Assembly (NCBI GenBank): GCA_964463005.1
Contig: CAYWZZ010000006.1
Coordinates: forward strand, 4,236 to 68,235
Source: an uncultured Candidatus Bathyarchaeia archaeon
Lineage (GTDB): Archaea > Thermoproteota > CALKCG01 > B24
Direction: 5' to 3'
Length of the DNA stretch: 64,000 bases
The position numbers were made by a program, and so were the translations under genes. The notes below the pieces were generated by a model. It saw nothing but the letters and a program-made list of their open reading frames with translations, had not been told where the DNA came from and did not search any database. Positions 5,278 through 64,000 of the stretch are shown here, one piece after another. Every line of letters starts with the position of its first letter. The stretch's first letter is position 1.

Positions 5278-5529
5278 ATGCCTCAGGCATTTGTACTCAT
5301 AAATTCTGAGATAGGGGCCGAAGAAGAGGTCTTAAATGCTCTCAAGAATATGGAGAATGTTAAAGAGGCGTACATCGTTTACGGAGTTTACGATATAGTT
5401 GCTCGGGTGGAAAGGGTTATGTAACCCCCACATGCCGACTCTATGGAGGAGCTTAGGGAAATAGTGACTGTGAAAATACGTAGGATAAATAAGGTTAGAA
5501 GCACTTTAACCATGATAGTTGCTAAGTAG
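5278..5529 (+). pseudogene. Lrp/AsnC-type RAM-domain small protein (about 83 aa) interrupted by an in-frame TAA at 5422-5424
   Basis: Manual translation gives MPQAFVLINSEIGAEEEVLNALKNMENVKEAYIVYGVYDIVARVERVM, then a stop, then PPHADSMEELREIVTVKIRRINKVRSTLTMIVAK. Together these form a full beta-alpha-beta-beta-alpha-beta RAM fold. It is absent from the ORF track because both halves are under 60 aa. Confidence 0.4.
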
Positions 5530-5586
5530 ATTAGCCCCACCTTTCATTTTTAAATATCGACGGCTTACAGCAAACGCTTATATTGT

Positions 5587-7245
5587 GTGGTGTTAAATAA
5601 TCATTTTGTGAAGCAGGTATATGTAGTTCCCGAACCAAAGAAGTTGGAGTTCACAGGTAGATGGTTTAAATTTGACGGTTTTGAAAACTTTCCAAAGTTT
5701 ATAGCTGAAGAGTTTAAAGTACCCACAGGCGGATGGAGGATAGTTAAAGTCGACCGCAATGGGACTGGCGTTAAAATCAAAGAGGGGGTTGTTGAAATTT
5801 GGGGGGATGAAAAGGTATGCTACGCTACACTCATACAGTTGATAACTCAGGGTGATGAGCAGATCCCGGAAGCCACTATTGAGGAGGAGTTCTCGTTTAA
5901 ATTTAGAGGGTTCCACTTAGACATAGCTAGAGGGGGAGTCCCTAAACTTGAGACGTTTAAGTCGATCATAAGATGGCTCTACCTACTTAAATACAACTAT
6001 TTTGCAGTTTACGTGGAGGACTTATTTCCTTGGAAAAGCTACCCTCAAATAGGTGTATCGAGGGGGAGGCTAACAGAGGAAGAGTGGAGTGCAGTAGTCG
6101 ACTACGGTGAGAAGTTGGGGGTTGAAGTTTTCCCATCACTTGAACTATGTGGACATATGGAGCATATACTATCGATGCCTGAGTTTAGACGGTTCAGCGA
6201 GTGGCATAGGCCTATGGAGGGGTGTTTAGACGTCAGCAACGAAGAAGCTAGAGAGTTCGCATATAGACTTTTAAGCGACGCCCTAGAGCTTACACGTTCA
6301 AATTATGTGCACATAGGTGGAGATGAGACTTGGGCGCTTGGAAGAGGAGCTAGTTTAAATAAAACGTGGAGATTTGAGGGGCCAAGCCTATATGAGAAAC
6401 ACCATAGAAGGCTTGTTGAAATCGTTAGAAGCCGAGGAAAGACTCCCCTACTATGGGGTGACATGATATCTGGAATGTACTTAGTTGGCGATAGGGAGAA
6501 GTGGGCTGAAGTGCTTCAAAGCGATATATGGAGGGAAAGTATAATAGCCAACTGGGACTACAGCCCAGAATCCATAGACCACTTTAGAAGGAAAATAGAC
6601 ATCTTCAAGAATAGAGGGCTTGAACAGATAGTTTGCCCAGGGTTTTCAAACTGGGATAGATTTTACCCGAACTTCGAAGTAGCTATTACAAACCTTAGAA
6701 ACTTCCTCACAGCAGCCAAGGAAAAGGGCGTATTAGGTTTCATGGTGACGGCTTGGGGAGACGATGGAGAAGAGTGTCTATTCTCATTCCTAACACCTTT
6801 AATACTTGCGTCTATGGAGATAGCTGAAGGCTCTGGAGATTGGGAGAAGAAGTGGATGGCGTTATCTAAGGAGAGCGAGGCTGTTTTGAAAGCTAGGTTA
6901 ATATTCGGACGTGGAGAAGTTTCAGATGTTCTTAAACACGTCTTATACTCTACGCCCATTTTTAAGAGGATTGGAAGTGAAAGATTAGAGAAAATTGCTG
7001 AAAACTGGAGAACAGCTTTAGAAACTTTAAAAGATACCGTTCTACCTAAAGACCTTGAATTTATAAGGAAATGTCTTGAAGTCGGCCTTAATAGACTTAA
7101 GGGAAGGGTGAAGGTTTCAGATTATATAACTTTAGCCCACTTATACTCTGAACTATGGCTTTCTGAGAGGAAGCCTGAAGGGTTAGAGTTGATAGTTACG
7201 AGACTCTGGGGAGCTGCTGGAAGAATAGATTTAAACTTACAATGA
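5587..7245 (+). CDS. GH20-like beta-N-acetylhexosaminidase family protein
   Basis: RGFHLDIARGG and YVHIGGDET correspond to the GH20 R-x-D and H-x-G-G-D-E catalytic motifs. Confidence 0.55.
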   Translation: MVLNNHFVKQVYVVPEPKKLEFTGRWFKFDGFENFPKFIAEEFKVPTGGWRIVKVDRNGTGVKIKEGVVEIWGDEKVCYATLIQLITQGDEQIPEATIEEEFSFKFRGFHLDIARGGVPKLETFKSIIRWLYLLKYNYFAVYVEDLFPWKSYPQIGVSRGRLTEEEWSAVVDYGEKLGVEVFPSLELCGHMEHILSMPEFRRFSEWHRPMEGCLDVSNEEAREFAYRLLSDALELTRSNYVHIGGDETWALGRGASLNKTWRFEGPSLYEKHHRRLVEIVRSRGKTPLLWGDMISGMYLVGDREKWAEVLQSDIWRESIIANWDYSPESIDHFRRKIDIFKNRGLEQIVCPGFSNWDRFYPNFEVAITNLRNFLTAAKEKGVLGFMVTAWGDDGEECLFSFLTPLILASMEIAEGSGDWEKKWMALSKESEAVLKARLIFGRGEVSDVLKHVLYSTPIFKRIGSERLEKIAENWRTALETLKDTVLPKDLEFIRKCLEVGLNRLKGRVKVSDYITLAHLYSELWLSERKPEGLELIVTRLWGAAGRIDLNLQ

Positions 7246-7262
7246 CGGTTGATTCTAACGAT

Positions 7263-8339: not shown

Positions 8340-8390
8340 AGTTGGACACTACCTGCAATTGGTATATAGGTCTATGTTTACCTCAGATCT

Positions 8391-10355: not shown

Positions 10356-10487
10356 TTTTTATCATTTAAGTTTAAATTTAAAAATACAGCTATCGACTCT
10401 TTCCGTGAAATCTCTAATAGGTGCAAAAGGCGGATAGTTTAACTGAAGTTTAAAGCACGTATGTTGACACGATCGAGGCATTGGATA

Positions 10488-11240: not shown

Positions 11241-11268
11241 ATCGATTCAATCTCCTAGACCATTATAT

Positions 11269-14956: not shown

Positions 14957-14980
14957 GGTAGTACATAGTCGTGGAGGTTG

Positions 14981-19527: not shown

Positions 19528-19596
19528 TAGATTATGTGTTTAAACGCCTCCTACGGCTTTTTAAGTTTAAAAAAAGCCTAGGGATGTGTTTAAAAT

Positions 19597-20877: not shown

Positions 20878-21964
20878 ATGATGATTGGTGAAAGCTTTTT
20901 CACACTTAGGACGATACTGTGGGAGGACGGAGCCATAGTTGCAGTAGATCAAAGGCTATTACCTAAAAGGTTCAAGTACGTTAAGATACGTAGTGTAGAC
21001 CAACTTTCTGAAGCCATTAAAAAACTCACCATAAGGGGGGCACCTGCCATAGGTGTTGCGGCAGCTCTTGGATTGGCATTGGTTGCATATAGATCTAAAG
21101 CGGAAAATCTAAGCGATTTTAAAAGGGAAGTTATGGATGCATACGAGAAGCTTAAATCTACTAGGCCTACAGCTGTAAACCTATTTTGGGCTCTTGACAG
21201 GGTTGTAGCGAAGATTTCTGAGGCAAAAGACCTTAAAGAGGCTAAGAAAATGATTATAGAAGAGGCTAAGACGATATGGATGGAGGATTATGAGGTAAAT
21301 AGACGCATAGGAGAGCATGGAGCTACACTACTTGAAAATGGGGATATGGTGCTCACGCACTGTAAATGGCTTAAGCCAGCAGAATGCGGGAGCACTAGCC
21401 ACTACTGGCTATGGAACCGCATTGGCAGTAATAAGGTCAGCTATAGCTAGGGGTTTACACATAGAAGTGTATGTAACTGAAACTAGACCAGTACTCCAAG
21501 GTGCTAGGTTAACGGCTTTCGAACTCCTTATGGATAGAATACCATTTAAACTCATAACAGATAATGCTGTCGGATTTCTGATGAGTAGGGGGCTTATAGA
21601 TAAGGTTGTAGTTGGCGCCGATAGAATAGCTTTAAACGGCGATGTTATAAATAAGATAGGGACTTACGGCTTGGCTGTTCTTGCAAGCCACCATGCGGTA
21701 CCATTCTACGTAGCAGCTCCAATGTCTACTATAGACCCTAATCTCAAATGCGGCGATAATGCCCCTATAGAGTTTAGAAGTGAAGAGGAAGTGGTTAAAA
21801 TTCACGGTCATAGGATAGCTCCTGAAGGCGTTGAAGCATTAAATCCAGCTTTTGACGTAACTCCTTCAAAGCTTGTAACGGCTATAATAACTGAGATGGG
21901 TGTGTTTAAGATACCGGAAGACTTAGATAGATTGAGGAGTATTAGGCTTGAGAAAAGCATTTAA
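20878..21964 (+). pseudogene. eIF-2B/MtnA family isomerase (methylthioribose-1-P isomerase or ribose-1,5-bisphosphate isomerase), with the reading frame broken at 21364-21382
   Basis: ORF 20878..21450 carries ...IRGAPAIGVAAALGLA...LTHC. ORF 21317..21964, in a different frame, carries [20 protein letters not shown]...[13 protein letters not shown]. The two halves are separated by 19 nt (aaatggcttaagccagcag) relative to the canonical THCNAGALAT. Confidence 0.6.
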
Positions 21965-23030: not shown

Positions 23031-24104
23031 TTAAGTCATAAAACCTATTCCTTTACATTCTATTTCGCTTGGTTTACCTAAGCCTCCGTTGATTTTAAAA
23101 TCAGCCTTCAGAATCATTCTGCTAAGCTCTATACAGGTGAGGGCGTGCATTGTAAGCTCTACGGTTTTAAATCTGCTTACTCCATCTGCTAGACTAGCCC
23201 ATATAATGAGCTGGTCGCAGAGGTGTTTATCTACAGGATAGCCGCCTCTAATTATGTTGATGAGCTCTTCAGCCGCCTCCGAGCCTATAAGCTCAGCCCG
23301 TTTACCTATGACACCCAATCGATCTACACCTAGATATCCGTAAGTGTGTTTAACCGTTATGATTAATCCGCAACCCGGGTCTAAGCTACACTTGGGGTTT
23401 AGAGGATGGAGGATTTCTTTCTCAAAAATCGGCTTTAAACCAATTGCATTAAGTTTTTCTGAAGCGCTTAAAGCCATTCTATTGGCTATATGATCTGGAA
23501 GTCTACAACTATATGCTAATCCTCTAACTTCCGATATCTCACCTAACTTATCAAGAGTTATAGGTTCAAGCTTTCTAATAGGCTCTGTTGAGAATTCCAC
23601 TTCTCCACCACCTCTAGGATAGAATCCCCTCCTGTTCAGCTTCAGATTGGCTTTAACTCCTATGAGTCTAAGATTCGGCAATAAAACACTGTCGATGTAG
23701 TCTACTGGAGGGGCCATGGGGTTGTTCGTACCTCCTATGAGCGTAAGCTTTGTGTAACCTGGTGTAAAGGCCATGACTGGCATGGCGGCTTGAAGGATTA
23801 AAGTTACGCTTCCAGCCGTTCCTACGTCGAACTTATAAGACCCAGGTTTAAGCTTTCCAGGGTTAAAAGTAACCTCCGTAGAGCCTAATTGTAAACCTTC
23901 AACGTAACCGTTGCATAGGGAGGATAGGACTTTTAAAGCCGTCATATGTTGCCTCGCTAAACCAGGCGGTTTGCGTTTACCTCTAACATTTACTACTCTA
24001 ACAGGTTCACCCAGTAAGGCTGACAAAGCCATAGACATTCTGAGTATCTGACCGCCACCTTCAAGCATATCTCCCGGTATAGTTATCATAGTACTCAACT
24101 CCAT
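23031..24104 (-). CDS. rtcA: RNA 3'-terminal phosphate cyclase
   Basis: GDMLEGGGQILRMSMALSALLGEPVRVVNVRGKRKPPGL is an RtcA N-terminal signature; 357 aa. Confidence 0.85.
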   Translation of the reverse strand: MELSTMITIPGDMLEGGGQILRMSMALSALLGEPVRVVNVRGKRKPPGLARQHMTALKVLSSLCNGYVEGLQLGSTEVTFNPGKLKPGSYKFDVGTAGSVTLILQAAMPVMAFTPGYTKLTLIGGTNNPMAPPVDYIDSVLLPNLRLIGVKANLKLNRRGFYPRGGGEVEFSTEPIRKLEPITLDKLGEISEVRGLAYSCRLPDHIANRMALSASEKLNAIGLKPIFEKEILHPLNPKCSLDPGCGLIITVKHTYGYLGVDRLGVIGKRAELIGSEAAEELINIIRGGYPVDKHLCDQLIIWASLADGVSRFKTVELTMHALTCIELSRMILKADFKINGGLGKPSEIECKGIGFMT

Positions 24105-31596: not shown

Positions 31597-31612
31597 GGTT
31601 TTAAACAATAAC
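31597..31612 (+). promoter_or_regulatory. candidate archaeal TATA box for tRNA-Asn
   Basis: TTTTAAACAATAA is centred about 26 nt upstream of the tRNA 5' end. Confidence 0.35.
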
Positions 31613-31629
31613 TGGGCAGAGGATCTATT

Positions 31630-31706
31630 GCCGCCGTAGCTCAGCGCGGTAGAGCAGCGGGCTGTTAACCCGTTGGTCGGCGGTTCAAGTCCGCCCGGCG
31701 GCGCCA
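31630..31706 (+). tRNA. tRNA-Asn (anticodon GTT), CCA encoded
   Basis: Acceptor GCCGCCG pairs with CGGCGGC. The anticodon stem GCGGG/CCCGT closes a loop CTGTTAA. The T-arm is GGCGG-TTCAAGT-CCGCC. Discriminator G, followed by CCA. Confidence 0.85.
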
Positions 31707-31779
31707 ACTTCTATTATTCATTACATAGACGTTAGAGACTTAAAGATGAGCAAGTATTTTCACCATTCTTTCAATGGTT

Positions 31780-32884
31780 TTAATTGGAAGTCTGTTTTAA
31801 GGTGTTGGGTTTTCTCTGTTTTGCGGATAAATATGCTTTCTCGATTATTTCTATTACGTGTCTAGCGTGTTCGCCTGATATCACTGGTTCTTTATCGTTG
31901 AGTATGCAGTCTACTAGATGCATTATATCTGAGTATATGTGTGCTTCAGGTAGTTTTACGTGAATTCCTGAAACGTATGGAAGTCTATTGGGGACTTCTT
32001 CAATGTAATGCCAACCGTCTATTTTACGACTCCAAACTTCTATACGGCCATACTCTAACTTTAACGCGCCTTCACTACCAGCTACGTGTAATCCTGAGAA
32101 GGATTCTCCATTGCCTATGCAGAAGGCTGAGTGTAGAAGGGCGAAAGTTGAATCTCCGAAGTCTAACAGTATAACAGTATTATCGTCTACTTCGACTTCA
32201 ACCTCTCTACCTAAGATCACTCTACGTTTAAGCCCTATACCAGACATAGCTGCAACCCTCTTAGCCGGACCCCCAATACTCCAGTTACTAGATGTAGAGC
32301 ATACACGCCCATGTCGTAAACGGGCCCCCGCCTCTCCGATAGTACCAGGAGGGGTCGATTTCTACGACAACATCTCCGGGTCTACGGAAGTCTTCAAACT
32401 CATGTCCTTCAGCTGTTGCGCCTGTTCTAGCCCAATAGACTTTACCTACAATACCGTCTTCCAACATGCTTCGAACCCTTTGAACGTCTCTTCTGAAGGC
32501 TATTCCAGGTGAAGCTACAAGCTTAACCTTGGCTCTATCTCTTTCACTTAGAAGATTATCGGCTTCTTCAACTGTTAAAGCCATAGGCTTGTTCAAGTGG
32601 ACGTGTATTCCAGCTTTAACGGCTTTTAAAGCCTGCTCGTAGTGTAGCTGTATTGGAGTGGCTATGGTAACGGCGTCTAAACCAGCTTTGGAAATCATAT
32701 CTTCATAGCTACTGTACCATTCATCAGCTTTAAAGCGTTCTCTACAGGCTTTAGCTCTCTCTTCAACCACGTCGCAGACCGCTGCGAGCTCAACCTTATC
32801 CTTTATGTCTTCCGCCGAGAGATGTGGAAGTATACCCCTCTGAGATACGCTTCCACAACCGACTACGCCTATTCTAACAGGCAT
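31780..32884 (-). pseudogene. Gfo/Idh/MocA family oxidoreductase with two frame disruptions at C5 homopolymers (32325-32329 and 32270-32274)
   Basis: The N-terminal Rossmann ORF is 32288..32884 (MPVRIGVVGCGSVSQRG...). The C-terminal ORF is 31780..32247. The bridging segment YDMGVYALHLVTGVLG is found only in the third frame, by manual translation. Confidence 0.6.
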
Positions 32885-32895
32885 GGGAACCTCCT

Positions 32896-33683
32896 CTACC
32901 AGTATTTCTTCATGAGTTCTCTTAGAAGGTTTAGATTCTCTTCCACTTTACTCCACTCATCTATCTCAAACATCCAGTACCAGTCGTAGTACTTCTTCAA
33001 CGCTTTAAACATAGCCTCATAGTCTACGTTCTCCAAATCCATCCTACCTGAGTGTAAAGCCACTATACGACGTTCGACAAGCTCTATCTCCTCGTGAGGC
33101 TTCATCGTCCCCCTAGGCCAGTAACAGTGCTCATAAACGCCTAAATGGTCGCTGGCTATCTCATCAACCATTCTACAGAGCTCTAAAAGCCCACCTAAAC
33201 CTAAACGAGCCCAAATCCCCCTTCAAGACCAAGCTTTACATCATAGGCTTCAGCAACATCTACTAGAGACAATAGCATGCTTTTAGCTTCATCCCAATTC
33301 TCAGCCTTACTCACACCAAAGTGTATAAGTAGAACCCTCCCACCTAGGTCAGCCGTTAACTTTATATCTTCCTTTAGAATCTCCAAGCCTCTACTCCAAT
33401 GTTTAAGCTTAGGGCAATATCGAGAGTAGCCCCAAGTCCGGTCAGAAGATAAACTAGCCAATTCAACACCGTAACTTCTACAAAGCTCAACAATCCTGCG
33501 TCTATCTTCAGTAGATAAGTCTTCAGACCAAGCTCCGAAATCATCACCCCACGGAGATCTAGGGTCTAGGCAAAGCTCAACACCATCCAATCCAAGCCTA
33601 GATACAAACTTTAAAGCCGGCTCAAAAGGATGTTCTCCGCCCCGTTCAGGCTTTGAGAAACTAACTCTTAAACCAATCTTCAT
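32896..33683 (-). pseudogene. xylose-isomerase-like TIM-barrel protein split by a -1 shift at the C5 run 33217-33221
   Basis: The N-terminal ORF is 33201..33683 and the C-terminal ORF is 32896..33171. Adding one base in the run gives a continuous ...DVKLGLEGGIWARLGLGGLLELCRMVDEIASDHLGVYEH... Confidence 0.5.
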
Positions 33684-33803
33684 AATTCCACAACCTCTAA
33701 TGTAGATAAGTAGTTAAGCTTTAACGTTAAAGTTAAGCGAAGCCCAACCATCAAGCCAGCTGAAAAGTTTAAGAGAAACCAGTGTAAGTAAAAACTTACA
33801 GAT

Positions 33804-33878
33804 GGGCCGGTAGATCAGCCTGGTATGATCGCCCCCTTGGCATGGGGGAGGCCGAGGGTTCAAATCCCTCCCGGTCCA
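33804..33878 (+). tRNA. tRNA-Ala (anticodon GGC)
   Basis: Acceptor GGGCCGG pairs with CCGGTCC, with the G3:U70 Ala identity pair. The anticodon stem CCCCC/GGGGG closes a loop TTGGCAT. The T-arm is GAGGG-TTCAAAT-CCCTC. Confidence 0.85.
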
Positions 33879-34365
33879 CTCCTAATTGAGTGAGAAAGAC
33901 TAAGAACATCATGACGACAATACTCAGATTTCTCCACAACCAGAATGAGAAAGTATAATGAAATCAAGCCTTCCATTTACAAGTTCTTTAGCAATTATGG
34001 CGACAAAAGATTCATCCTTAGCTTGAGAAAATACGAAACATAAATTCTCTCGCTACTCTTAATATCATCCAATTCCCCCTTTGACCTTTAAAACTTTTAC
34101 TTGCATAAAAGATTGACTCAAAAATTAAAGTTAACCAACAGGTAAATTAATAGAGGGATCAAAAAGCCGAGTAAAACTTTCGAAAATTTCCTCTTTACAA
34201 GGAAGATTAGAGGATTCCATCTAGCCTTGAATATATTTAAAAAAATAGCTTGAAAGTGGGAATAATGTACCATTCTAAGTCTCAATTTTAAAGGAGGTTT
34301 GAACATTTCTCCACCATCAACTTGAGCCTTGGAGCTAACTCCTTAGGTAGGTTTTCATCTTTCAA

Positions 34366-34626
34366 TCATTCCCTCATATGTGCCAACCTAAGTCTAACGT
34401 ACGCCAGGTCTTCCTTGTTTAGGGTATGTTTAATTTCGTATTCCACGGCTACAATGTGTGCTTCATAGGTAGTCTTTAAGTGACGGCTGACAATGGTCAT
34501 CTCGTTGATGGGTATACCTTTCTTCTTCAATTCACTTATCTCAATAACTTCATGTAGCATTAGAAAATCGCTACGTAAAACTTCTTTTAGTGTTATTCTA
34601 TCGCCACTGATGGCTTCACTGGTCAT
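34366..34626 (-). CDS. hypothetical protein
   Basis: ORF only; sits in an AT-rich, low-coding stretch after tRNA-Ala. Confidence 0.25.
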   Translation of the reverse strand: MTSEAISGDRITLKEVLRSDFLMLHEVIEISELKKKGIPINEMTIVSRHLKTTYEAHIVAVEYEIKHTLNKEDLAYVRLRLAHMRE

Positions 34627-34894
34627 GTAGTCGTAAAAATCTCTTGGAGATATATCTTCATAGTCGTAACCAAGGCTTCTAGCAATTTCGCCGCCCTTTT
34701 CAATTTAAGGGAGATCCCATCAGACGTGTGTAAACACTTACAGTAGAATTAAACTTGGGAGAATATTTAACATCTTTCATAATATGGAGACGAATTCATC
34801 GAACTGAGTCTATTATATAGGTTTTAGGTCTTCGTAAGATAGAGCCATACGTAGATTTAAATACAGGCGTGATTTAAAGTAAATTCGAGGAAAT

Positions 34895-36134: not shown

Positions 36135-36266
36135 CTCGACTGCTTAATGATTATTCGGCTGTGCAATAATCCTAATCACCTGAAATATTAGTCTTATCCA
36201 TTCAACCTCTTTTTCAAAAACATAAAATTTTAAGTTTTAAAAGGATTTGTTTAAAAGGTTAACGCA

Positions 36267-42341: not shown

Positions 42342-42893
42342 TTACTTATCTAGTTGCGATTCGCTAAAACCTTGGGAAAGCTTATAGTAAACTACTTCTC
42401 CTCTACGATCTACAACAGCCAATAGAAGCTCTTTATCCGAATACACATCAGGTCTGGTAACTCTGATTAAATCTTCTATTTTAACTGGTTTACCTTCCGA
42501 AACCCCTATGACCAAATATTTAGCAGGTTGCTCACCATATGTTCCACGTTCATACATTAGAAAATCCAACCCAATCCCATAACCTCTTCTGACCACATAC
42601 CCCCTATCTCTTAAATCTCTATATATTAAAAATCTAATCCAAACGTCTGGATCAGTAGGGATGAGTCTTTCGGTAACGTCCTTCAATGTAAGCTCACGAT
42701 CAGCTTCAAAAATTCTAAGTTTACCCTCACTCATCAAATAAAGGGCCTCTTCGCCAGCTAAAATGAGAAAATTGCCTTCTTTAACGCCATATCCTTTCTG
42801 AATTAGAAAACTCCTATAATCGCTGTCTTTAACTAAAATTCTACCATTCTCTAAGAAGGCTATACCGCTTGGAGGTTTAGACTCTGAATCCAT
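42342..42893 (-). CDS. endA: tRNA-splicing endonuclease
   Basis: LIYRDLRDRGYVVRRGYGIGLDFLMY is the catalytic C-terminal domain (Y..LR.RG..V..G.K.G.DF..Y). Confidence 0.8.
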   Translation of the reverse strand: MDSESKPPSGIAFLENGRILVKDSDYRSFLIQKGYGVKEGNFLILAGEEALYLMSEGKLRIFEADRELTLKDVTERLIPTDPDVWIRFLIYRDLRDRGYVVRRGYGIGLDFLMYERGTYGEQPAKYLVIGVSEGKPVKIEDLIRVTRPDVYSDKELLLAVVDRRGEVVYYKLSQGFSESQLDK

Positions 42894-48109: not shown

Positions 48110-48148
48110 CTTCTAGTAAATTCTTAGATACTCTTAAGGAATAAATGT

Positions 48149-48946
48149 TTACTCATTCTTCTTTTGATCCAAATCTTCTTTAAATATTTCTTCAAGTTCT
48201 TTTCTAGCTTCTTCTTGAAGTTCCCTAATCTTATGAAGCCTTTCTTGGACTCTATTGAGCCAATCTCTACTGGCTTCAATACCTTTATGTGCAAAATAAG
48301 CTAAAGCTTCATTTCTACTTCTAAATATACCTGCATCTACTAGGAGCTTTATAAGTTTGGCATCAGGTTCGGGAATTCTAATCGAGGAAACAACTTCAGT
48401 AGCTTTAGATATTATTTTCTCCGTCGATGAAAAGACTTCTTTTAAAGCATCCTCCAAAGCTTCAGTTAAAGTGTCTATCTTTACGAAGACTGATGGAGCT
48501 AGAGGAGGGGTTTCCGTGATCAGGAAGCCTTTAATACGGGATTCAAATTCTTTAAAGGATGCTTCTAGATCTCGGAATAAGTGTAAGTATACCTCAAGGT
48601 CATCAGCCGCTTCTGCAAGCATGCTTTTAATCTCATAAACTCTTTCAGCGTATTCTTTCGGAAGAGTATGGACAAGTTCTCTAAGACTTCTCCTAAAATT
48701 GTGGATGGTTTCTCTGAAGTCTGTGTAGAGGTTTTGAAGCTCATGTCTAAAGTTTATCCTCAATCTTTTAACGTCTAAGTAAAGGTCTATGAGTTTATCC
48801 TTAGAAACGTTTAGATCTGCTTTTTTAAACCCCTCCAAAGACTTTTCATACCTCTTAAGGACATTTTCACATCTATCTTTCATCTCTTTCCTAAATTCTT
48901 CAATTTTCTTCTTGAAGTCGTCTAAACTGCTCATACAAAAATACAA
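48149..48946 (-). CDS. hypothetical coiled-coil protein
   Basis: ORF only; Glu/Lys-rich heptad-like sequence. Confidence 0.3.
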   Translation of the reverse strand: MYFCMSSLDDFKKKIEEFRKEMKDRCENVLKRYEKSLEGFKKADLNVSKDKLIDLYLDVKRLRINFRHELQNLYTDFRETIHNFRRSLRELVHTLPKEYAERVYEIKSMLAEAADDLEVYLHLFRDLEASFKEFESRIKGFLITETPPLAPSVFVKIDTLTEALEDALKEVFSSTEKIISKATEVVSSIRIPEPDAKLIKLLVDAGIFRSRNEALAYFAHKGIEASRDWLNRVQERLHKIRELQEEARKELEEIFKEDLDQKKNE

Positions 48947-51043: not shown

Positions 51044-52193
51044 TCATAAGTAGTTTAATCCATAATTAAAAGATGGTATTGGAAACGCTTTTCTAAACGC
51101 TTTAGGGATCGATGTATAGTCGAACTCAATAGTATCTTGATTGTGGACGGTCTCAGGTCTACCGAATACAAGCGTAGTAAATGCTTTAGGATCTCTAAGT
51201 CTTGCACACTCCCCAAACATGTAAACTTCAAGCCCACCGTCATTATGAGTAACAACTTTAAAATTGGCTTTAACGCCAAGCCTCTCCTCAATATAGGGTC
51301 GTATTTTATTCGCGAAAATAGCTGGATTTAATATGGCTAGGCTTGCAGGAGCTTGAGAAATTTTAGGTTTTAAACCTGAGCCTTCTAAAAGAGTTATGAG
51401 CTCCCAGTCTCCATATGGAATAGGAAATCTAACGTACTCAACTTTAAGGTCTTTAGATGCATCGTAGAGCGTTTTAAGAACGTCAATTCTAGATCCTGCA
51501 TACTCAACAACCGTTAAATTGTTAAAAAATCCTTTAACGAGCGCCACATAGGAAGTTGGTTTATTCATTCTATACGACACGGATATACTTAATGCCTCAA
51601 CTTCAGCTAAAAAGACTCTATCCGCAAACAACTTAAACTCTTCAAAGCTTCTCCTAAACCTGATGGGCTCCCTTTGATATAGTTCAATTAAATCTGAAGT
51701 TTTATCCTCACTGTAAGATTCGACTTTCAATTCGTCCAAACTTGTAGCCAAGTCTTTAAGCGTATTGAGTGGAACATAGTAGTTGTAGATTATGCCAGCC
51801 TCTACGCAACCAGCTCTACTGTAAAGCGACCTAGCACCTGAAACCATGACGAAGTCCACATGGTCTCTGTATAACTTTGCAAAAGCATCTTTAACCAAGG
51901 ATGAGGCATAACCCTTCATCCTGTAGTCTGGGTGAGTACACACGCATCCAATAAGACCTACTTTAAGCCAAATACCGTAAAAGTGAAGCCACCCCTCCCA
52001 GATGGCTAGGTGAGAGACTACTTTTCCATCAGATACAATGACTCTTAAATTTTCAATATTCTCTTCACAGAGGACGTGGGGGGAAAACCTTATCCAAGTA
52101 GACGCTGTGCTTTTTAAACCCAAAGATCCAACTCGTAAGCTCAACTATCTGTGGAAGCTCCTCTACTCTAGCGGCTCTAGGGCCTTCGATCAT
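51044..52193 (-). pseudogene. GNAT-family (Eis-like) acetyltransferase with a +1 shift at the G6 run 52079-52084
   Basis: The N-terminus MIEGPRAARVEELPQIVELTSWIFGFKKHSVYLDKVFP, from ATG 52193, is in a different frame from the ORF 51044..52144 (..HVLCEENIENLRVIV..THPDYRMKGYASSLV). Removing one G joins them. Confidence 0.45.
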
Positions 52194-54892: not shown

Positions 54893-55132
54893 GTGGTCTT
54901 TATGAGTAGTTATATAACGGTCTCTACAAAAGTCAGGAAAGAACTCGTTGAAAGGGCTCGGGCTTTAGGCGTGAACATTTCTGAGGTCTTGAGGAAGTCT
55001 CTTGAGGAGTGGGTTATGAAGAGAGAGTTAGAGGAGTTGGAGAAGAAACTGAAGGAGATGAGCGAAACTCTTGAGAAGATAGATTTAGATGAAGTTACGA
55101 GAATTATAAGGGAGGATCGGGAGACTAGGTGA
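54893..55132 (+). CDS. vapB: VapB-like ribbon-helix-helix antitoxin
   Basis: 79 aa; ISEVLRKSLEEWV is an RHH-like N-terminal motif. Overlaps the downstream PIN gene by 4 nt. Confidence 0.55.
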   Translation: MVFMSSYITVSTKVRKELVERARALGVNISEVLRKSLEEWVMKRELEELEKKLKEMSETLEKIDLDEVTRIIREDRETR

Positions 55133-55539
55133 GACTTTTGACCTATCTATTCGACGCATCCTCTATAATTCTCGCTATGAAGCTTAAGAAGATCAGTGTT
55201 CTGGCGGGGAATTATATACAAAGTTTAACCATATATGAAGTATTGAATGCCTTGTGGAAGGAATCAAACGTCTTAAAAAAGATAAGTAGTAGGGAGGCAG
55301 AGAATCTAGTAGACGTATTCGCTCAGCTTCTAAGATATCTGAACACCATAGATGTCAAGGGAATAGAGGGTAGAGTGTTTAGAACAGCTATGGAAACAGG
55401 CTTAACAGTATATGATGCCTCCTACCTCGTCTTAGCGCAGAGAGAAAACCTTACTCTAGTAACTGAAGATGCTAAGCTGAGAAAAATGGCAGGCGAAACT
55501 GTAGAGGCAGTAAGCCTCATAAAGTTGATTCAACCATAA
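55129..55539 (+). CDS. vapC: VapC PIN-domain toxin
   Basis: The PIN acidic residues lie in YLFDASSII, TVYDASYLVLA and LVTEDAKL. Confidence 0.75.
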   Translation: MRLLTYLFDASSIILAMKLKKISVLAGNYIQSLTIYEVLNALWKESNVLKKISSREAENLVDVFAQLLRYLNTIDVKGIEGRVFRTAMETGLTVYDASYLVLAQRENLTLVTEDAKLRKMAGETVEAVSLIKLIQP

Positions 55540-57524: not shown

Positions 57525-57590
57525 ACCACTTTAATCATAATTAGGTTACTGAAAAGATAAGGCTTCGCTCTTCGACTACCATGGGTTGCG

Positions 57591-59615: not shown

Positions 59616-59648
59616 AATTCACATCTCTTGATGAGAGAGCAATAAGCG

Positions 59649-61010
59649 TTATTCTTCTGAGAGGAATTTCGTACCCCAATGTTCTAATGCCTTTCGCAAC
59701 TCAACGTGGTCTTTAGCATACTCTCCTAAGGGGATGTTATTCATAAATGCCTCCATAGCCTGTCGCATAGCCGTTGCGCCAGCTTTAGTCCCCATCGGAT
59801 GCCCATGGATGCCTCCCCCGGCATTCAGCTGAATATCTGGAAAGCCTAGCAGTTGTAGGTTTGCGGGAACTAAAGCTGGATGTATCCCACCGGAGGCTAC
59901 GGGTAATGTCGATTTAAGACCATACCAGTCACTTCTCAGAAAGTCGTTCATATAGCGAATTCCGGCAAGACCGGAAAAACTTTCAAGCTGCTTCAACGCT
60001 CCGCTACCGGGTTTCTCCATCTTACCCTTAGCAGTCCCCGTATGCAGTTGATCACCGCCAGCCAACCTAACGAGCTTAGCTAATACGAGCATGTGAATGC
60101 CGTGCTCGGGGTTTCTCGTCATAGCAGCATGTAGACATCTATGGACGTGAATTGGAACTTTAACAGATGGATCTTCGGCCAACTCCCTTAAAGCAGGGTA
60201 ACCCGTGCAGAGGACATCTATCATTATGCAGTTGGCACCATTACTGAGGGCTATCTCAACGTTCTTCCACAATCTATTCAAATCCGCTGTAACATCAACT
60301 GCATATAACACCGTTCTACCAGTTTCCTCCTTAACTTTATCGAGCACACTCATCACGTGAGAAACTCTTTCTTCCAACTGGTTGAACTTTTGACTTGTAA
60401 GCGTTTCATCGTCCTTTATGAAGTCAACACCACCTATGGCAGCTTCATATGCCACTTTAGCCGTCTCCGCGGGGTTGAGGCCTACTTTAGGTTTGATTAT
60501 CGTACCTAAGTGAGGCCTTGGATTTCCATGAGTGCCTATTATTCTCCTCACACCCTCTATGCCGAATTTCGGTCCTTTAAACATCTTAACGTATTCTTTA
60601 GGTAGGCTTACGTCTAGCAATCTCACATTTTTTAGAGCACCTATTCCAAACAAGTTGCCAGCTATGATTGAAAGCATATGCGAAATGCCAGCTTCTAAAT
60701 CAAATAAATCTAAAGGAAATGCCACTTTTGCCAATCCTCCACCATTTAACTTCTCAACTTGAAAGACTTTACCTGCTAACTTCAATACCCTATCAGTTAT
60801 CGTTACAACTTTTGTCCACGTTCCTATAGATTGTTCAGCAACAAGGTTTATCGCAGCACTTTGAAGGCTGAGATTTTCCCTTGGGGTTATGTAATAGAGA
60901 CATATAACGTGACTATCGGGGTCTATTTCCTCAACACTGGCTGTGAAGGTTTTTATCCAAAATTCCTCCTCAAACCACTCCTTACTCATGCCCATGAAGG
61001 CAACGCCCAC
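59649..61010 (-). CDS. rbcL: RuBisCO large subunit homologue with a complete catalytic residue set (form III-like)
   Basis: AEQSIGTWT (E60/T65/W66), AGNLFG (N123), IIKPKVGL (K175/K177), GGVDFIKDDE (K201/D203/E204), HVHRCLH (H294/R295/H298), GGDQLHTGT (H327), ASGGIH (S379) and NAGGGIHGHP (G403/G404). Confidence 0.8.
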   Translation of the reverse strand: MGVAFMGMSKEWFEEEFWIKTFTASVEEIDPDSHVICLYYITPRENLSLQSAAINLVAEQSIGTWTKVVTITDRVLKLAGKVFQVEKLNGGGLAKVAFPLDLFDLEAGISHMLSIIAGNLFGIGALKNVRLLDVSLPKEYVKMFKGPKFGIEGVRRIIGTHGNPRPHLGTIIKPKVGLNPAETAKVAYEAAIGGVDFIKDDETLTSQKFNQLEERVSHVMSVLDKVKEETGRTVLYAVDVTADLNRLWKNVEIALSNGANCIMIDVLCTGYPALRELAEDPSVKVPIHVHRCLHAAMTRNPEHGIHMLVLAKLVRLAGGDQLHTGTAKGKMEKPGSGALKQLESFSGLAGIRYMNDFLRSDWYGLKSTLPVASGGIHPALVPANLQLLGFPDIQLNAGGGIHGHPMGTKAGATAMRQAMEAFMNNIPLGEYAKDHVELRKALEHWGTKFLSEE

Positions 61011-61152
61011 ATAATATTAGTTTGACTAGTATAAAAACGTGATTTTACAGGCAACCTAATTTAACTGACATCGAATCTCCATCTGCAATGTTGAGGAGAA
61101 ATTATTAATTCTGGATTGGAAGAATGTTACTCTTAGAGGGGTTTGATTTAAA

Positions 61153-62601
61153 ATGAGGTACTTCCTAGGTTTGGATGTAGGTACTAAGAATATTAAAGCA
61201 ACCGTGTTAAGCGATGAAGGAAACATCGAAGAAGAGGTTTCGATTTCAGTTTACGACTTGATAAATCAGCCTAGAGCTGGGTTTGTAGAGCGCGATCCAC
61301 TGGCGCTCTGGAAGAGGGTATGCGATAGTTTAAAGAGGCTTAAACTTAAAGATAAAATTGAAGGTGTTTGCGTTGACGCTACGAGCGGCACGATTGTGCC
61401 AGTAGATGAGGCGGGCATCCCTCTGCACAACCTTATAATGTACAATGATAGTAGAGCTGTAACAGAGGCGGAGGAGCTTAGAAAGTCTAGCTCTAAAGCA
61501 CGTGAATTTGAAAGTTTCCTTCCAATAACACCTCAGCTAGTTCTACCTAAAATAATGTGGATGAAAGAACATTGTGAATTCTACGGAAGGATCTATAAAA
61601 TACTCCATGAAAGCGACTACATAGTCTATAAATTAACTGGATTATTCGCATCTTCTACTAACACTGCCGGAAAATCTCACGCGCTTTTAGACCGTTTAAA
61701 GTACCTTGAAGAGGCATATGAAGATGTAAATGTACCAGTTGACTTTATGCCCGAGTTAAAGCCCATAGGCTCAATAGTAGGTTACGTGACGGAGAATGCA
61801 AGCGTGGAAACTGGCTTACCGAGTGGAATACCTGTGATAAATGGGGTTACAGATGCAAGCGCCGGAGATATAACTTCAGGAGCCATAAAAGCTGGACAAG
61901 CAAATGCAACGATAGGTACAGCTTTGACAGTTCACGTAGTCGTTGATAAACCCGTACCAGACGCATTTCAACGATTCTACTACAAAACATACGTTAACGA
62001 TTTGTTCCTAGCAGGAGGATTTACAAACGCAGGGACAACTGCTTTAGACACTATGAGTAGACTTTTAGGTAAAAATCTCATGGAGCTCACGGATATGGCT
62101 AGGAAGGTTCCACCGGGTTGCGAGGGTCTAATTGCATGTACAGAATGGTATGGCGTAAGAGTGCCGAAGACATATCCTAGTGTCAGAGGATTTTTCATCG
62201 GGCTTTCAGAAATCACGGCAAATCCGGGTGTTATCTTTAGAAGTATGTTGGAGGGGTCTGCTTTAGCGCTTAAACTTATGCTGGATTCTGTAGAGGAGGT
62301 GACGAAGATTAAAGTGTACGATCTTAGGGTGAGTGGGGGTGCTTCTAGAAATGACCTATTTATGAGTATCATAGCTGACGTTTCAGGTAAAGACGTTTAC
62401 GCAGTTGAAGAGCCAAATTCCGCCGTTGGTTCAGCTATATTGGCTATGTGGGGCTGTACAGGGGGAGAAATAGAGAAGATAGTGAGTAAAGTGGTTAAGA
62501 TAAGGGAGCGGTTTAAGCCTAATATGGAAAACCATGTAAAATATTCGAATCTACTGGATAAGTATGTTAAATTGGTTGAAAACCTAGCTAAGATAGTATA
62601 G
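61153..62601 (+). CDS. FGGY-family carbohydrate kinase, second copy
   Basis: MRYFLGLDVGTKNIKATV at the N-terminus; 482 aa. Divergent from the rbcL operon. Confidence 0.8.
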   Translation: MRYFLGLDVGTKNIKATVLSDEGNIEEEVSISVYDLINQPRAGFVERDPLALWKRVCDSLKRLKLKDKIEGVCVDATSGTIVPVDEAGIPLHNLIMYNDSRAVTEAEELRKSSSKAREFESFLPITPQLVLPKIMWMKEHCEFYGRIYKILHESDYIVYKLTGLFASSTNTAGKSHALLDRLKYLEEAYEDVNVPVDFMPELKPIGSIVGYVTENASVETGLPSGIPVINGVTDASAGDITSGAIKAGQANATIGTALTVHVVVDKPVPDAFQRFYYKTYVNDLFLAGGFTNAGTTALDTMSRLLGKNLMELTDMARKVPPGCEGLIACTEWYGVRVPKTYPSVRGFFIGLSEITANPGVIFRSMLEGSALALKLMLDSVEEVTKIKVYDLRVSGGASRNDLFMSIIADVSGKDVYAVEEPNSAVGSAILAMWGCTGGEIEKIVSKVVKIRERFKPNMENHVKYSNLLDKYVKLVENLAKIV

Positions 62602-62694
62602 CTTAGAGTCCTTAATAAGGTTAGGCTTCAAGTGAAGCGATGCATTTATCTCGTACTCAATGGATTTTTATAACCGCGGATATGGTACAATTTC

Positions 62695-63381
62695 ATGGTG
62701 TCAACTTTGAAGTTTAAAGCAATAGTGCTTGATATGGATGGTACTCTTGTAGACTCTTCGGAGGCACATTTGAAAGCATGGTCTAAGGCTGCTGAGAAGC
62801 TGGGCGTTTATGTTCCAGAAAGCAAGATAAAGTCTGAGTTCGGTAAGTCGAGTTACGATATGGCTAAGGCTTTCCTACCACCTGATAGAGTTGAAGATGC
62901 TATTCGATTTGCTGAGCTTAAAGATAGGATATTCATGGAGGATTGTTTAAGCCTAATTAAGCCGATCGTAGGGGTAGCAGAGGCTCTTAAAGGATTTAAA
63001 GAAGTAGGTCTAGATATCGCCGTAGCTTCTTCAAACCCACGGAGGCTTGTAGTTAAAGTTTTAAATCTAACCAACCTGCTAGGCTACGTGGATGTTGTAA
63101 TCGGTTCCGAAGACGTTAGGAGGGGGAAGCCGCATCCAGATATGGTTGAAGAAGCCATTAAAAGACTGAATGTGAAGCCATGTGAAGCCATATACGTGGG
63201 CGATACGGTGTACGATGTAAAAGCAGGCAAAGCAGCTGGCGTATTCACAGTCGCCGTTTTAACAGGAGTAGCATCTAGAGAAGAGCTTGAGAATTCGCAA
63301 CCTGATATGATAGTGGAAAACATAAAAGATCTGTTAAAGAGCTTAACGGGTGGGCGCTATCCATTCGTAGAGAAAACATAA
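62695..63381 (+). CDS. HAD-superfamily hydrolase, subfamily IA (phosphatase/beta-phosphoglucomutase-like)
   Basis: IVLDMDGTLVDS is motif I. Also SSNPRR and VGDTVYDVKAGKAAG. Confidence 0.8.
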   Translation: MVSTLKFKAIVLDMDGTLVDSSEAHLKAWSKAAEKLGVYVPESKIKSEFGKSSYDMAKAFLPPDRVEDAIRFAELKDRIFMEDCLSLIKPIVGVAEALKGFKEVGLDIAVASSNPRRLVVKVLNLTNLLGYVDVVIGSEDVRRGKPHPDMVEEAIKRLNVKPCEAIYVGDTVYDVKAGKAAGVFTVAVLTGVASREELENSQPDMIVENIKDLLKSLTGGRYPFVEKT

Positions 63382-63414
63382 ATTTAGGTTACGTGAATGG
63401 TCTAAACGGTTTAT

Positions 63415-64000
63415 ATGAAGCCAATTAGAGTAATTGACTTAAGTCAAGTACTGTACAACTGTCTGCCTTTATGGCCTACTCAGCCAAACCTTCTATATGA
63501 GATGTTGAGCAATGTTGCACGTGACGGAAGTACTATGCATGTAATTCGACAAATGACTACACATAGCGGCACACGTCGACGTACCTCTGCATTTCATATT
63601 TGATGGAAGATCCGTCGACCAAATGTCGATAGAAGATTTCACTGGCGAAGGTCTAGTAGTAGACCTGTCGTATAAGAGAGCTGGAGAAGCAATAACCATT
63701 AATGACATCAAAGTTTACGAGAGTGAGATAAAGCCTGGAGATGTTTTAATACTTCACACCGGATGGGATAAGAAATTCGGATTTAACCCAGAGTATCTTT
63801 TCGAATGGCCGTATGTAATAGAGGAGACTGCTGAATACTTAGTTGGAAAGAAGATAAAAGCCCTCGGAGTTGATACGTTAAGTGTTGGCGGTTGGGATGG
63901 ACAACTACCAGGACATGGCCCAGTAGCGGTTAAAGGATCGCCAGCTAGAGTCCACCGTATTCTACTCGGTGCTGGTATAGTCCTCATAGAGTCTTTAACG
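63415..64000 (+). pseudogene. cyclase-family protein (kynurenine-formamidase-like); frame broken by loss of an AC dinucleotide at about 63571-63574; the 3' end runs off the window
   Basis: ORF 63415..63603 ends ...MTTHSGTRRRTSAFHI. Restoring acacac gives the canonical HSGTHVDVPLHFIFDG, and the rest of the cyclase domain follows in the shifted frame (...ILHTGWDKKFG...). Confidence 0.5.

What the first reader, a model, noticed from the sequence alone, without database searches (positions are those of the whole stretch)
5422..63574. Window-wide excess of gene-disrupting lesions (at least 7 in 64 kb), mostly at C/G homopolymers
The lesions are the RAM gene TAA, the e2b2/MtnA 19-nt segment, the Gfo/Idh/MocA gene (twice), the TIM-barrel gene, the GNAT gene (G6 at 52079-52084) and the cyclase AC-dinucleotide loss. 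About 10% of the genes in the window are affected. Four of the seven lesions are +/-1 events in runs of five or more C or G. That is the signature of pyrosequencing, Ion-Torrent or nanopore homopolymer errors, or of slippage-prone pseudogenisation in a reducing genome. Any downstream metabolic inference must take this into account. The pattern also means that some apparently truncated or hypothetical ORFs elsewhere may hide further shifts.
Basis: seen in the sequence. Interest (0 to 1): 0.55.

Follow-up and report, generated by a model that had tools for sequence, protein, structure and literature searches.

The report
Two mRNA introns plus real pseudogenes
The seven "gene-breaking lesions" in this archaeal (Bathyarchaeia) window are not sequencing errors: two are short, conserved bulge-helix-bulge introns inside protein-coding genes, a class with one confirmed coding-region case so far, and the rest are real, recent frameshift mutations that have killed four accessory genes.

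Summary
All seven disruptions are present, and each repaired or spliced protein matches its Pfam domain in one unbroken stretch. They are two different things.

(1) The "TAA" in the RAM-domain gene and the "19-nt segment" in mtnA are exact inserts of 21 and 19 nt. Each folds into an archaeal bulge-helix-bulge (BHB) splicing motif. Removing them restores ...ARVE|ADSME... and the conserved ...THC|N|AGALAT... Both inserts are kept at the same site in related Bathyarchaeia species (77-94% nucleotide identity). One relative has a 22-nt version that shifts the frame while both exons stay intact. A tRNA-splicing endonuclease gene lies in the window. These are introns, not damage.

(2) The Gfo/Idh/MocA gene has three indels, not two. 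The TIM-barrel (-1), GNAT (+1) and cyclase (-2) genes carry true mutations. They are identical in at least four distinct independent metagenome assemblies (99.9% identity). The exception is the TIM site, which is intact (G6) in one sample. Every relative examined has intact copies, and dN/dS is close to that of neighbouring genes, so these are recent pseudogenes.

Sequencing error is not supported. The introns are new members of a known but very rare kind.

The parts
5278..5529 (+). Stand-alone RAM (Lrp/AsnC ligand-binding) domain gene, 76 aa after splicing. Exon 1 is 5278-5412, exon 2 is 5434-5529.
   Evidence: The spliced product matches PF01037 positions 2-71/73 in one stretch. Intron-less orthologs at 68-76% identity read ...ARVEADSME... 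exactly at the predicted junction.
5413..5433 (+). 21-nt BHB intron (AGGGTTATGTAACCCCCACAT) containing the in-frame TAA at 5422-5424. Motif: h 5403-5406/5435-5438; H 5407-5410/5428-5431; bulges 5411-5413 and 5432-5434; h' 5414-5418/5423-5427.
   Evidence: The RNAfold minimum-energy structure is the textbook 4 bp / 3-nt bulge / 5-bp hairpin / 4 bp / 3-nt bulge / 4 bp. It is conserved in L096 and L097. L180-182 carry a 22-nt version that shifts the frame while exon 2 stays intact.
20878..21964 (+). mtnA (S-methyl-5-thioribose-1-phosphate isomerase), 355 aa after splicing. Exon 1 is 20878-21365, exon 2 is 21385-21964.
   Evidence: The spliced product passes TIGR00512 (439.6 bits, cut-off 279) in one stretch and does not reach the e2b2 cut-off. 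Pfam IF-2B matches 2-279/280. BLASTP to an intron-less homolog shows no gap across ...LTHCNAGALAT....
21366..21384 (+). 19-nt BHB intron (ATGGCTTAAGCCAGCAGAA; the boundaries can slide within the AA repeats). Motif: H 21360-21363/21379-21382; bulges 21364-21366 and 21383-21385; h' 21367-21370/21375-21378; outer helix 21349-21358/21386-21395 with one A.G mismatch and an unpaired A at 21359.
   Evidence: MFE -26.4 kcal/mol, z = -4.1, 0 of 200 shuffles fold as well. The insert is present at the same site in four related species, L016-L019. All seven members of the 90% cluster of N-terminal fragments read into it as ...[11 protein letters not shown].
42342..42893 (-). tRNA-splicing endonuclease EndA (183 aa), the enzyme expected to cut both introns.
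   Evidence: Passes TIGR00324 endA (75.2 bits, cut-off 59.6). Best solved relative is M. jannaschii 1a79, E = 4e-23. dN/dS 0.034 against a relative.
31760..32884 (-). Gfo/Idh/MocA oxidoreductase pseudogene with three indels: -1 at 32325-32329, +2 at 32270-32274, -1 at 31819-31822.
   Evidence: Alignment with the intact 374-aa genes of relatives L183 and L184. The tblastn match breaks into frames -1/-2/-1. The sequence is identical in all conspecific assemblies.
32896..33683 (-). Xylose-isomerase-like TIM-barrel gene with a -1 deletion in the C-run at 33217-33221 (G6 to G5 on the coding strand). The site is polymorphic.
   Evidence: Sample 3300008019 (L014) has one more C and an intact 262-aa gene. 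Members of the 90% cluster are nearly all 262 aa. Relatives have G6.
51044..52193 (-). Eis-like GNAT acetyltransferase with a +1 insertion in the G-run at 52078-52083 (C5 to C6 on the coding strand).
   Evidence: Relatives L176 and L177 (T4C5) and L178 (T5C4) encode intact 381-382 aa proteins that read ...VFPHV.... The lesion is identical in all conspecific assemblies.
63415..64000 (+). Cyclase / arylformamidase-like gene (it runs on to about 64120, beyond the window) with a 2-nt deletion between 63574 and 63575.
   Evidence: Relatives L185 and L186 and other cluster members are intact at 235-236 aa and read ...THSGTHVDVP....
34291..34790 (-). Probable additional pseudogene (hypothetical protein). 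TGA at 34366-34368 replaces a TGG, with indels near 34690 and 34750.
   Evidence: Alignment with the 165-aa ORF of relative L183. Weaker than the others, because the N-terminal part is not clearly coding in L176.

Best explanation
The window comes from a Bathyarchaeia archaeon whose population recurs almost clonally in several metagenomes. The 'lesions' are two unrelated phenomena.

(A) Introns. The RAM-domain gene and mtnA each carry a short intron (21 nt and 19 nt). In the transcript, each intron folds with its flanking exon bases into a bulge-helix-bulge motif. The tRNA-splicing endonuclease, encoded at 42342-42893, would cut in the two 3-nt bulges, and an RtcB-type ligase would join the exons. 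This gives mRNAs for a 76-aa RAM protein and a 355-aa MtnA. The motif, the exact frame-restoring junctions and the conservation are shown here. Cleavage and ligation are inferred.

(B) Pseudogenes. Gfo/Idh/MocA (-1, +2, -1), the TIM-barrel gene (-1), GNAT (+1) and the cyclase (-2) carry real indel mutations specific to this lineage, mostly in short G/C runs. These have recently inactivated accessory sugar and oxidoreductase genes. One of them (TIM) is still polymorphic in the population.
For: Introns:
- One search gives a textbook hBHBh' fold for RAM. The mtnA site folds to a BHB-like structure at -26.4 kcal/mol, z = -4.1.
- The spliced products match PF01037, PF01008 and TIGR00512 end to end and align to intron-less homologs without a gap.
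- The 19-nt insert is present in four other species with 81-91% protein identity. All spliced CDSs are open, 355 codons.
- The RAM insert is present in three other lineages. One has a 22-nt version that puts exon 2 in another frame while exon 2 stays conserved.
- Only 1 of the 10 exon codons in the mtnA outer helix varies at the third position, against 61% gene-wide. That one change keeps a U.G pair.
- An exon change in L097 turns a G-C pair into G.U.
- A strict BHB motif at a given position and length is expected about 1e-6 of the time.
- EndA is present.

Pseudogenes:
- The lesions are identical in independent assemblies.
- Intact orthologs exist in every relative examined.
- An intact TIM allele occurs in sample 3300008019.
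- dN/dS for TIM is 0.085 and for Gfo 0.082, against 0.06-0.08 for neighbours. GNAT is 0.164 and the cyclase 0.140, against 0.03-0.12.
Against: - There are no RNA data, so splicing is inferred from sequence alone.
- No compensatory double substitutions were seen, because the introns are almost invariant.
- BHB-like motifs by loose criteria are common by chance: 13-24 observed against 5.6-10.8 expected per window. The case therefore rests on the coincidence with exact frame-restoring inserts and on conservation.
- The mtnA motif is slightly irregular, with an extra unpaired A opposite the 3' bulge.
- The RNA ligase gene is not in the window.
- For the frameshifts, the read-level support and sequencing platforms of the public assemblies were not seen.
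- The near-normal dN/dS of TIM and Gfo also fits genes that are still expressed in some way.
Confidence: 0.82

Rival explanations
1. The disruptions are homopolymer sequencing or assembly errors (454, Ion Torrent, nanopore) in the source assembly, and the genes are really intact.
For: Several lesions sit in G/C runs. One run (33217-33221) differs in length between assemblies.
Against: The same indels occur in assemblies from six samples, including MEGAHIT-style k141 contigs, JGI assemblies and a Logan unitig. Only 3 indel differences are seen over 64 kb, and none except TIM falls at a lesion. A related species in the same sample has the intact runs. The Gfo +2, the cyclase -2 and the 19/21-nt inserts are not homopolymer miscalls.
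Confidence: 0.04
2. All seven, including the RAM and mtnA inserts, are pseudogene lesions in a decaying genome.
For: Both inserts break the ORF, and gene callers split or truncate the genes in every assembly.
Against: The inserts are retained at the same site in 4-5 species with dS around 0.3-0.45. Both exons stay open and conserved, and mtnA is 81-91% identical over 355 aa. A 21/22-nt length variant leaves the exons untouched. Each insert is bracketed exactly by a BHB motif.
Confidence: 0.03
3. One or more of the single-indel genes (TIM, GNAT, cyclase) are still expressed by programmed ribosomal frameshifting or transcriptional slippage at the G/C run, as with fucA1 of Saccharolobus solfataricus.
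For: There is an archaeal precedent in which a strain-specific frameshift in a sugar-enzyme gene is decoded by -1 PRF at a low level (PMC8211752). The lesions lie in homopolymers. The dN/dS of TIM equals that of its neighbours.
Against: No X XXY YYZ slippery heptamer is present at any site (sequence). The shifts are absent from all relatives, so they are not a conserved recoding signal. Gfo would need three separate events. G5/C6 runs are short for polymerase slippage (my own knowledge).
Confidence: 0.08
4. The 19-22-nt inserts are decoded at the ribosome (stop-codon read-through, bypassing or hopping) rather than removed from the RNA.
For: The RAM insert in the window is in frame (21 nt) with a single TAA.
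Against: The 22-nt variant in L180-182 and the 19-nt mtnA insert change the frame. There are no matching take-off and landing codons that would regenerate ...HCNAG... (sequence). The insert sequence is nearly invariant, whereas coding third positions vary at 61% of codons.
Confidence: 0.03

Closest known systems
BHB intron in the cbf5 pre-mRNA of Crenarchaeota (Watanabe et al. 2002; Yokobori et al. 2009, PMC2738675)
   Same: A short intron inside an archaeal protein-coding sequence, bracketed by a bulge-helix-bulge motif. It breaks the ORF in the DNA and has been confused with frameshifting or a pseudogene. It has been gained and lost among close relatives, and the tRNA-splicing endonuclease is the presumed enzyme.
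   Different: The genes differ (a stand-alone RAM-domain protein and mtnA, not cbf5), and so does the lineage (Bathyarchaeia, not Desulfurococcales/Sulfolobales). Two occur within 16 kb. Splicing is not yet confirmed experimentally. As of 2020, cbf5 was described as the only coding-region case (PMC7714728).
BHB intron in the 5' UTR of HVO_1309 mRNA, Haloferax volcanii (PMC7714728)
   Same: An mRNA substrate of the archaeal splicing endonuclease.
   Different: That intron lies in the untranslated leader. Those here interrupt the reading frame, so splicing is obligatory to make the protein.
Archaeal tRNA and rRNA BHB introns
   Same: The same hBHBh' geometry: a 4-bp central helix and two 3-nt bulges. 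The sizes (19-22 nt) fall within the range of the small tRNA introns.
   Different: The host RNA is a messenger. No tRNA-like body surrounds the motif.
Unconventional splicing of XBP1/HAC1 mRNA in eukaryotes (from my own knowledge)
   Same: A very short intron (26 nt in XBP1) whose removal changes the reading frame. An endonuclease cuts in stem-loops and an RtcB-type ligase joins the ends, independently of the spliceosome.
   Different: The nuclease (IRE1) and the recognition motif differ, and that system is stress-regulated. No regulation is shown here.
Programmed -1 frameshifting in fucA1 of Saccharolobus solfataricus (PMC8211752)
   Same: A split ORF in an archaeal sugar-metabolism gene that looks like a pseudogene. 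The frameshift is strain-specific.
   Different: fucA1 has an A-AAA-AAT slippery site with a stem-loop. The indels here lack such signals. Gfo has three of them.

Membership tests
Archaeal BHB (bulge-helix-bulge) intron | Two 3-nt bulges on opposite strands, separated by a 4-bp helix | tested here: met
   RAM: GUGG/CCAC with bulges AAA and AUG, which is the MFE structure. mtnA: CUGU/GCAG (one G.U) with bulges AAA and AAU. An extra unpaired A at 21359 faces the 3' bulge, or the bulge becomes 2 nt if that A pairs with U. This is a slight deviation from the canonical form.
Archaeal BHB (bulge-helix-bulge) intron | Flanking helices h and h' on both sides of the motif | tested here: met
   RAM: h UCGG/CCGA and h' GGGUU/AACCC. 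mtnA: a 10-bp outer helix with one mismatch, and h' UGGC/GCCA. 97% of cells are paired across relatives.
Archaeal BHB (bulge-helix-bulge) intron | Excision at the bulges yields the functional (conserved) product | tested here: met
   Cutting after the second bulge nucleotide gives ...VE|AD... and ...HC-N-AG..., identical to intron-less orthologs.
Archaeal BHB (bulge-helix-bulge) intron | Maintained by selection: same site in relatives, with exons intact | tested here: met
   mtnA in L016-L019; RAM in L096, L097 and L180-182, including a 22-nt variant. Synonymous sites in the exon arms are frozen. No compensatory double changes were seen.
Archaeal BHB (bulge-helix-bulge) intron | Splicing endonuclease encoded by the genome | tested here: met
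   EndA at 42342-42893 passes TIGR00324 and matches solved EndA structures. The subunit type (alpha4 or (alpha-beta)2) was not determined.
Archaeal BHB (bulge-helix-bulge) intron | RNA ligase (RtcB) present; spliced mRNA and excised or circular intron observed | not testable with these tools
   No RtcB gene lies in the window (only RtcA at 23031-24104). No transcript data are available.
Pseudogene (recent, by indel) | Reading frame broken relative to intact orthologs in close relatives | tested here: met
   Gfo, TIM, GNAT and cyclase, compared with L183/L184, L176-L178 and L185/L186 and with cluster members.
Pseudogene (recent, by indel) | The lesion is in the DNA, not an artefact of one assembly | tested here: met
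   Identical in at least four distinct consensus sequences from six samples. Raw reads were not inspected.
Pseudogene (recent, by indel) | Relaxed selection after inactivation | tested here: inconclusive
   dN/dS of TIM and Gfo equals that of neighbours. GNAT, cyclase and the outside Gfo2 are modestly higher. This fits very recent inactivation but does not prove loss of function.
Programmed ribosomal frameshift site | Slippery heptamer plus a stimulatory structure, conserved among relatives | tested here: not met
   No X XXY YYZ motif at the five or six indel sites. The indels are absent from all relatives.
Homopolymer sequencing error | Run length varies between independent assemblies or reads of the same strain | tested here: not met
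   Only 33221, 19568/19575 and 48135 vary. Of the lesions, only TIM does, and there the alternative allele is the intact one shared with other species.

The most novel reading that the evidence does not exclude
BHB introns in protein-coding genes are not a cbf5 curiosity. They may be a regular feature of this hot-spring Bathyarchaeia genus. Two were found in 64 kb, which would extrapolate to tens per genome, and in-frame ones would be invisible to gene callers. Because unspliced mRNA gives truncated products, endonuclease-dependent splicing could act as a post-transcriptional switch for a small RAM-domain regulator and for methionine salvage.
Probability: 0.25. Interest if true: 0.8.

Novelty: new member of a known kind. 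Interest (0 to 1): 0.6.

Why it matters
In the papers searched, the only confirmed BHB intron inside an archaeal coding sequence is cbf5 of Crenarchaeota, with one further case in a 5' UTR. No search returned a report of such introns in Bathyarchaeia. Two new, conserved examples in unrelated genes of another lineage have three consequences.

(i) mRNA splicing by the tRNA endonuclease may be broader than thought.

(ii) Automated annotation of these MAGs wrongly splits or truncates functional genes. Every public gene call for these two genes is a fragment, so mtnA would be scored as absent or broken in metabolic reconstructions.

(iii) The introns give a concrete pair of substrates for testing archaeal mRNA splicing.

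The pseudogene part is ordinary. It is still useful to know that four accessory sugar and oxidoreductase genes, plus two more nearby, are really dead in this strain while intact in its sister species.

Tried and rejected
- De novo BHB motif scans of the window. Loose criteria give 13 strict and 24 relaxed hits, against 5.6 and 10.8 in Markov shuffles, so the motif alone does not discriminate. One search timed out.
- A screen for BHB candidates whose removal extends an ORF. It gave mostly gene-boundary artefacts, and my own print thresholds excluded the two true introns. No further convincing intron was found, but the screen was weak.
- A concatenated query of the four repaired proteins in the search for homologous proteins. 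It returned one irrelevant hit and wasted a search.
- Covariation counting. There were no compensatory double changes because the introns are nearly invariant, so it gave only wobble-compatible single changes.
- The idea that the Gfo indels compensate each other (-1, +2, -1 = 0). Rejected, because about 170 codons between them are out of frame.
- A BHB candidate at Gfo site 1 (13 nt). Rejected, because relatives have no insert there.
- Rfam and tRNA scans show only three intron-less tRNAs.
- Most multi-frame tblastn flags from relatives' ORFs were non-coding antisense or upstream ORFs.
Full report
**What the window is.** The 64-kb window (41% GC) encodes typical archaeal core proteins: DNA ligase, TIP49, prefoldin, proteasome beta, aCPSF1, tRNA-splicing endonuclease and a RuBisCO whose best match is the type III model, just below its curated cut-off. 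Exact-protein look-ups found the same region in assemblies from six samples: ENA ERZ27245635 (a 146.7-kb k141 contig), JGI 3300017406, 3300009590, 3300022546 and 3300008019, and Logan SRR7539956. BLASTN gives 99.92-100% identity. A base-by-base list shows 45 variant positions and only three indel sites over 64 kb: an A-run at 19568/19575, the C-run at 33221 and a T-run at 48135. Private SNPs define at least four distinct consensus sequences: the window, ERZ27245635, 3300009590 and 3300008019. The closest named genomes are Bathyarchaeia MAGs, including QZM_A2_bin_24 and DRTY-6 bins_74.

**Checking the observation.** After the minimal repair, each product matches its Pfam family in a single stretch covering nearly the whole model. 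The disruptions are therefore real.

**Two 'lesions' are introns.**

*mtnA.* The universally conserved ...THCNAGALAT... is interrupted after THC by exactly 19 nt.

*RAM gene.* The sequence ...ARVE / ADSMEEL... is interrupted by exactly 21 nt that carry the TAA.

*Structure.* Both inserts contain a perfect small hairpin and, together with the adjoining exon bases, form a bulge-helix-bulge motif.
- RAM: UCGG-GUGG-AAA-[GGGUU AUGU AACCC]-CCAC-AUG-CCGA. This is the RNAfold minimum-energy structure.
- mtnA: CUGU-AAA-[UGGC UUAA GCCA]-GCAG-AAU, enclosed by a 10-bp exon-exon helix. Its energy is -26.4 kcal/mol, z = -4.1, and none of 200 shuffles folds as well.
- By the two-fold symmetry of the motif, the excised length is 3 + hairpin + 4, which gives 21 and 19 nt. 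These are the lengths needed to restore the proteins.
- Cutting after the second nucleotide of each bulge gives GUGGAA|GCCGAC (V-E-A-D) and UGUAA|UGCG (C-N-A).

*Products.* The spliced MtnA passes the equivalog model TIGR00512 (439.6 bits, cut-off 279) but not the e2b2 model. It aligns without a gap to a 60%-identical intron-less MtnA. Intron-less RAM orthologs (68-76% identity) read ...ARVEADSME....

*Chance.* A loose BHB pattern is common by chance: 13 strict and 24 relaxed hits, against 5.6 and 10.8 in shuffles. A strict hit at one given position and length is expected about 1e-6 of the time. Here it coincides with the frame-restoring insert twice.

**Comparative evidence for the introns.**
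- A scan of GTDB species representatives with the spliced MtnA found four related Bathyarchaeia (81-91% protein identity, 77-87% nucleotide identity, collinear gene order). In each, the match spans 1084 = 1065 + 19 nt.
- All four carry the insert AAATGGCTTAA[G/A]CCAGCAG at the same place. All five spliced CDSs are open for 355 codons.
- Across these species 61% of codons vary at the third position. Only 1 of the 10 exon codons in the outer helix varies, and that change (GGA to GGG) turns U-A into U.G.
- The 90%-identity cluster of the N-terminal mtnA fragment has seven members from many contigs, and all read into the intron as ...[11 protein letters not shown].
- For RAM, a metagenome scan found the 21-nt insert in two relatives at 94% and 88% nucleotide identity. 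One has a loop change and an exon change that converts G-C to G.U.
- A third lineage, seen on 21 contigs, has a 22-nt insert with one more loop base. Exon 2 therefore lies in a different frame from exon 1, yet it encodes the conserved ...ADTMEKLREIVTVRIRRINKVRSTLTMIVAK.
- A length change that leaves both exons under selection is what an intron predicts. Read-through, bypassing or a pseudogene do not predict it.
- No compensatory double substitutions were seen, because the elements are almost invariant.
- The window encodes EndA (TIGR00324 above cut-off; best solved relative M. jannaschii 1a79). The ligase gene is not in the window.

**Literature.** Full-text searches found only the cbf5 intron of Crenarchaeota as a confirmed BHB intron inside a coding sequence (PMC2738675). 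A 5' UTR intron is known in Haloferax (PMC7714728), and that 2020 paper states that cbf5 was the only previously reported BHB intron in an mRNA. No search returned a report of Bathyarchaeia mRNA introns.

**The remaining lesions are real, lineage-specific mutations.**
- *GNAT.* Relatives L176 and L177 (GGTTTTCCCCCACG) and L178 (GGTTTTTCCCCACG) encode intact 381-382 aa proteins. The window has C6.
- *Cyclase.* Relatives read GGCACACATGTTGAT and the window reads GGCACAC--GTCGAC. Cluster members are 235-236 aa.
- *TIM barrel.* Relatives and the conspecific sample 3300008019 have G6 and a 262-aa product. The window and the other assemblies have G5.
- *Gfo.* Relatives L183 and L184 encode 374 aa. 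The window differs by -1 (GGAGGA to GGGGG), +2 (G3 to G5) and a third -1 in an A-run near the 3' end, which shifts the last 20 codons.
- L183 comes from the same sample as one of the conspecific assemblies, so the platform did not collapse these runs systematically.
- All other genes compared with relatives over 34.5-52.3 kb and 53.7-63.4 kb are intact.
- Pairwise dN/dS (NG86): TIM 0.085 and Gfo 0.082, against 0.06-0.08 for their neighbours. GNAT is 0.164 and the cyclase 0.140, against 0.03-0.12. Inactivation is therefore recent compared with the species split (dS about 0.3-0.45).
- None of the sites has an X XXY YYZ slippery heptamer. None of the shifts is conserved in relatives. Programmed recoding on the model of fucA1 (PMC8211752) is unlikely, though it cannot be strictly excluded for the single-indel genes.

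**More decay nearby.**
- A hypothetical gene at 34291-34790 has a TGA where the relative has TGG, plus indels.
- A second Gfo gene just beyond the window end is riddled with in-frame stops and has lost about 240 nt. It is intact in L185 and L186.
- The interval from the tRNA-Asn gene (31630) past the tRNA-Ala gene (33804) to about 34.8 kb holds Gfo, TIM and the hypothetical gene. It is also where synteny with L178 breaks and where the L176 and L177 contigs end. It behaves like a variable accessory island.

**Verdict.** The sequencing-error reading is not supported. The pseudogenisation reading holds for four genes in the window, with at least two more candidates. Two of the seven items are conserved BHB introns in protein-coding genes, which is the interesting result. 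The pseudogenes are ordinary. The introns are new members of a very small known class and still need RNA-level confirmation.

Noticed in passing
window 48267-48920: Nine SNPs are clustered in about 650 bp of the gene at 48149-48946 (Pfam Mb1296_C family). Here the window differs from all five other conspecific assemblies, which agree with each other. The gene is absent from the relative L176/L177 but present in L178. This could be a recombination tract or a fast-evolving gene.
   Followed up: no
It shifts the last 20 or so codons, and the ancestral C-terminus ...KTEKTQHLKTDFQLKPLKEW is still readable in another frame.
   Followed up: yes
window 34291-34790 (- strand): A hypothetical gene with TGA at 34366-34368 where relative L183 has TGG, with conserved sequence continuing after the stop, plus indels near 34690 and 34750. 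It is probably another pseudogene.
   Followed up: partly
L001 900-2600 (about 3.3-4.1 kb beyond the window end): A second Gfo/Idh/MocA gene, heavily decayed in this strain (many in-frame stops and an internal deletion of about 240 nt) but intact (335-352 aa) in relatives L185 and L186.
   Followed up: partly
window 19568-19575 and 48135: Run-length polymorphisms among conspecific assemblies. An A-run just upstream of the HflX-like GTPase start is one A longer in 3300009590 and 3300008019, and their gene calls change from 374 to 370 aa. An intergenic T is deleted in 3300009590.
   Followed up: no
window about 31600-34800: The interval from tRNA-Asn (31630-31706) past tRNA-Ala (33804-33879), holding Gfo, TIM and the hypothetical gene, coincides with a synteny break in relative L178 and with contig ends in L176 and L177. 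It looks like a variable accessory island that concentrates the pseudogenes.
   Followed up: partly
window 20878-21964 and 59649-61010: The split IF-2B-family gene is MtnA (TIGR00512 above cut-off), not the ribose-1,5-bisphosphate isomerase e2b2 (below cut-off). It is therefore not the obvious partner of the type III-like RuBisCO at 59649-61010. That RuBisCO sits among FGGY sugar kinases and a GH42 galactosidase.
   Followed up: partly
window 36225-36248: An AT-rich near-perfect palindrome (AAACATAAAATTTTAAGTTTTAAAAGGATTTGTTT) between the divergent PALP and PHP genes. It scores as a BHB-like motif on both strands, and is probably a promoter or operator palindrome.
   Followed up: no
window 54893-55539: A VapB-like (CcdA Pfam in relatives) and PIN-domain VapC toxin-antitoxin pair, conserved in relatives.
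   Followed up: no
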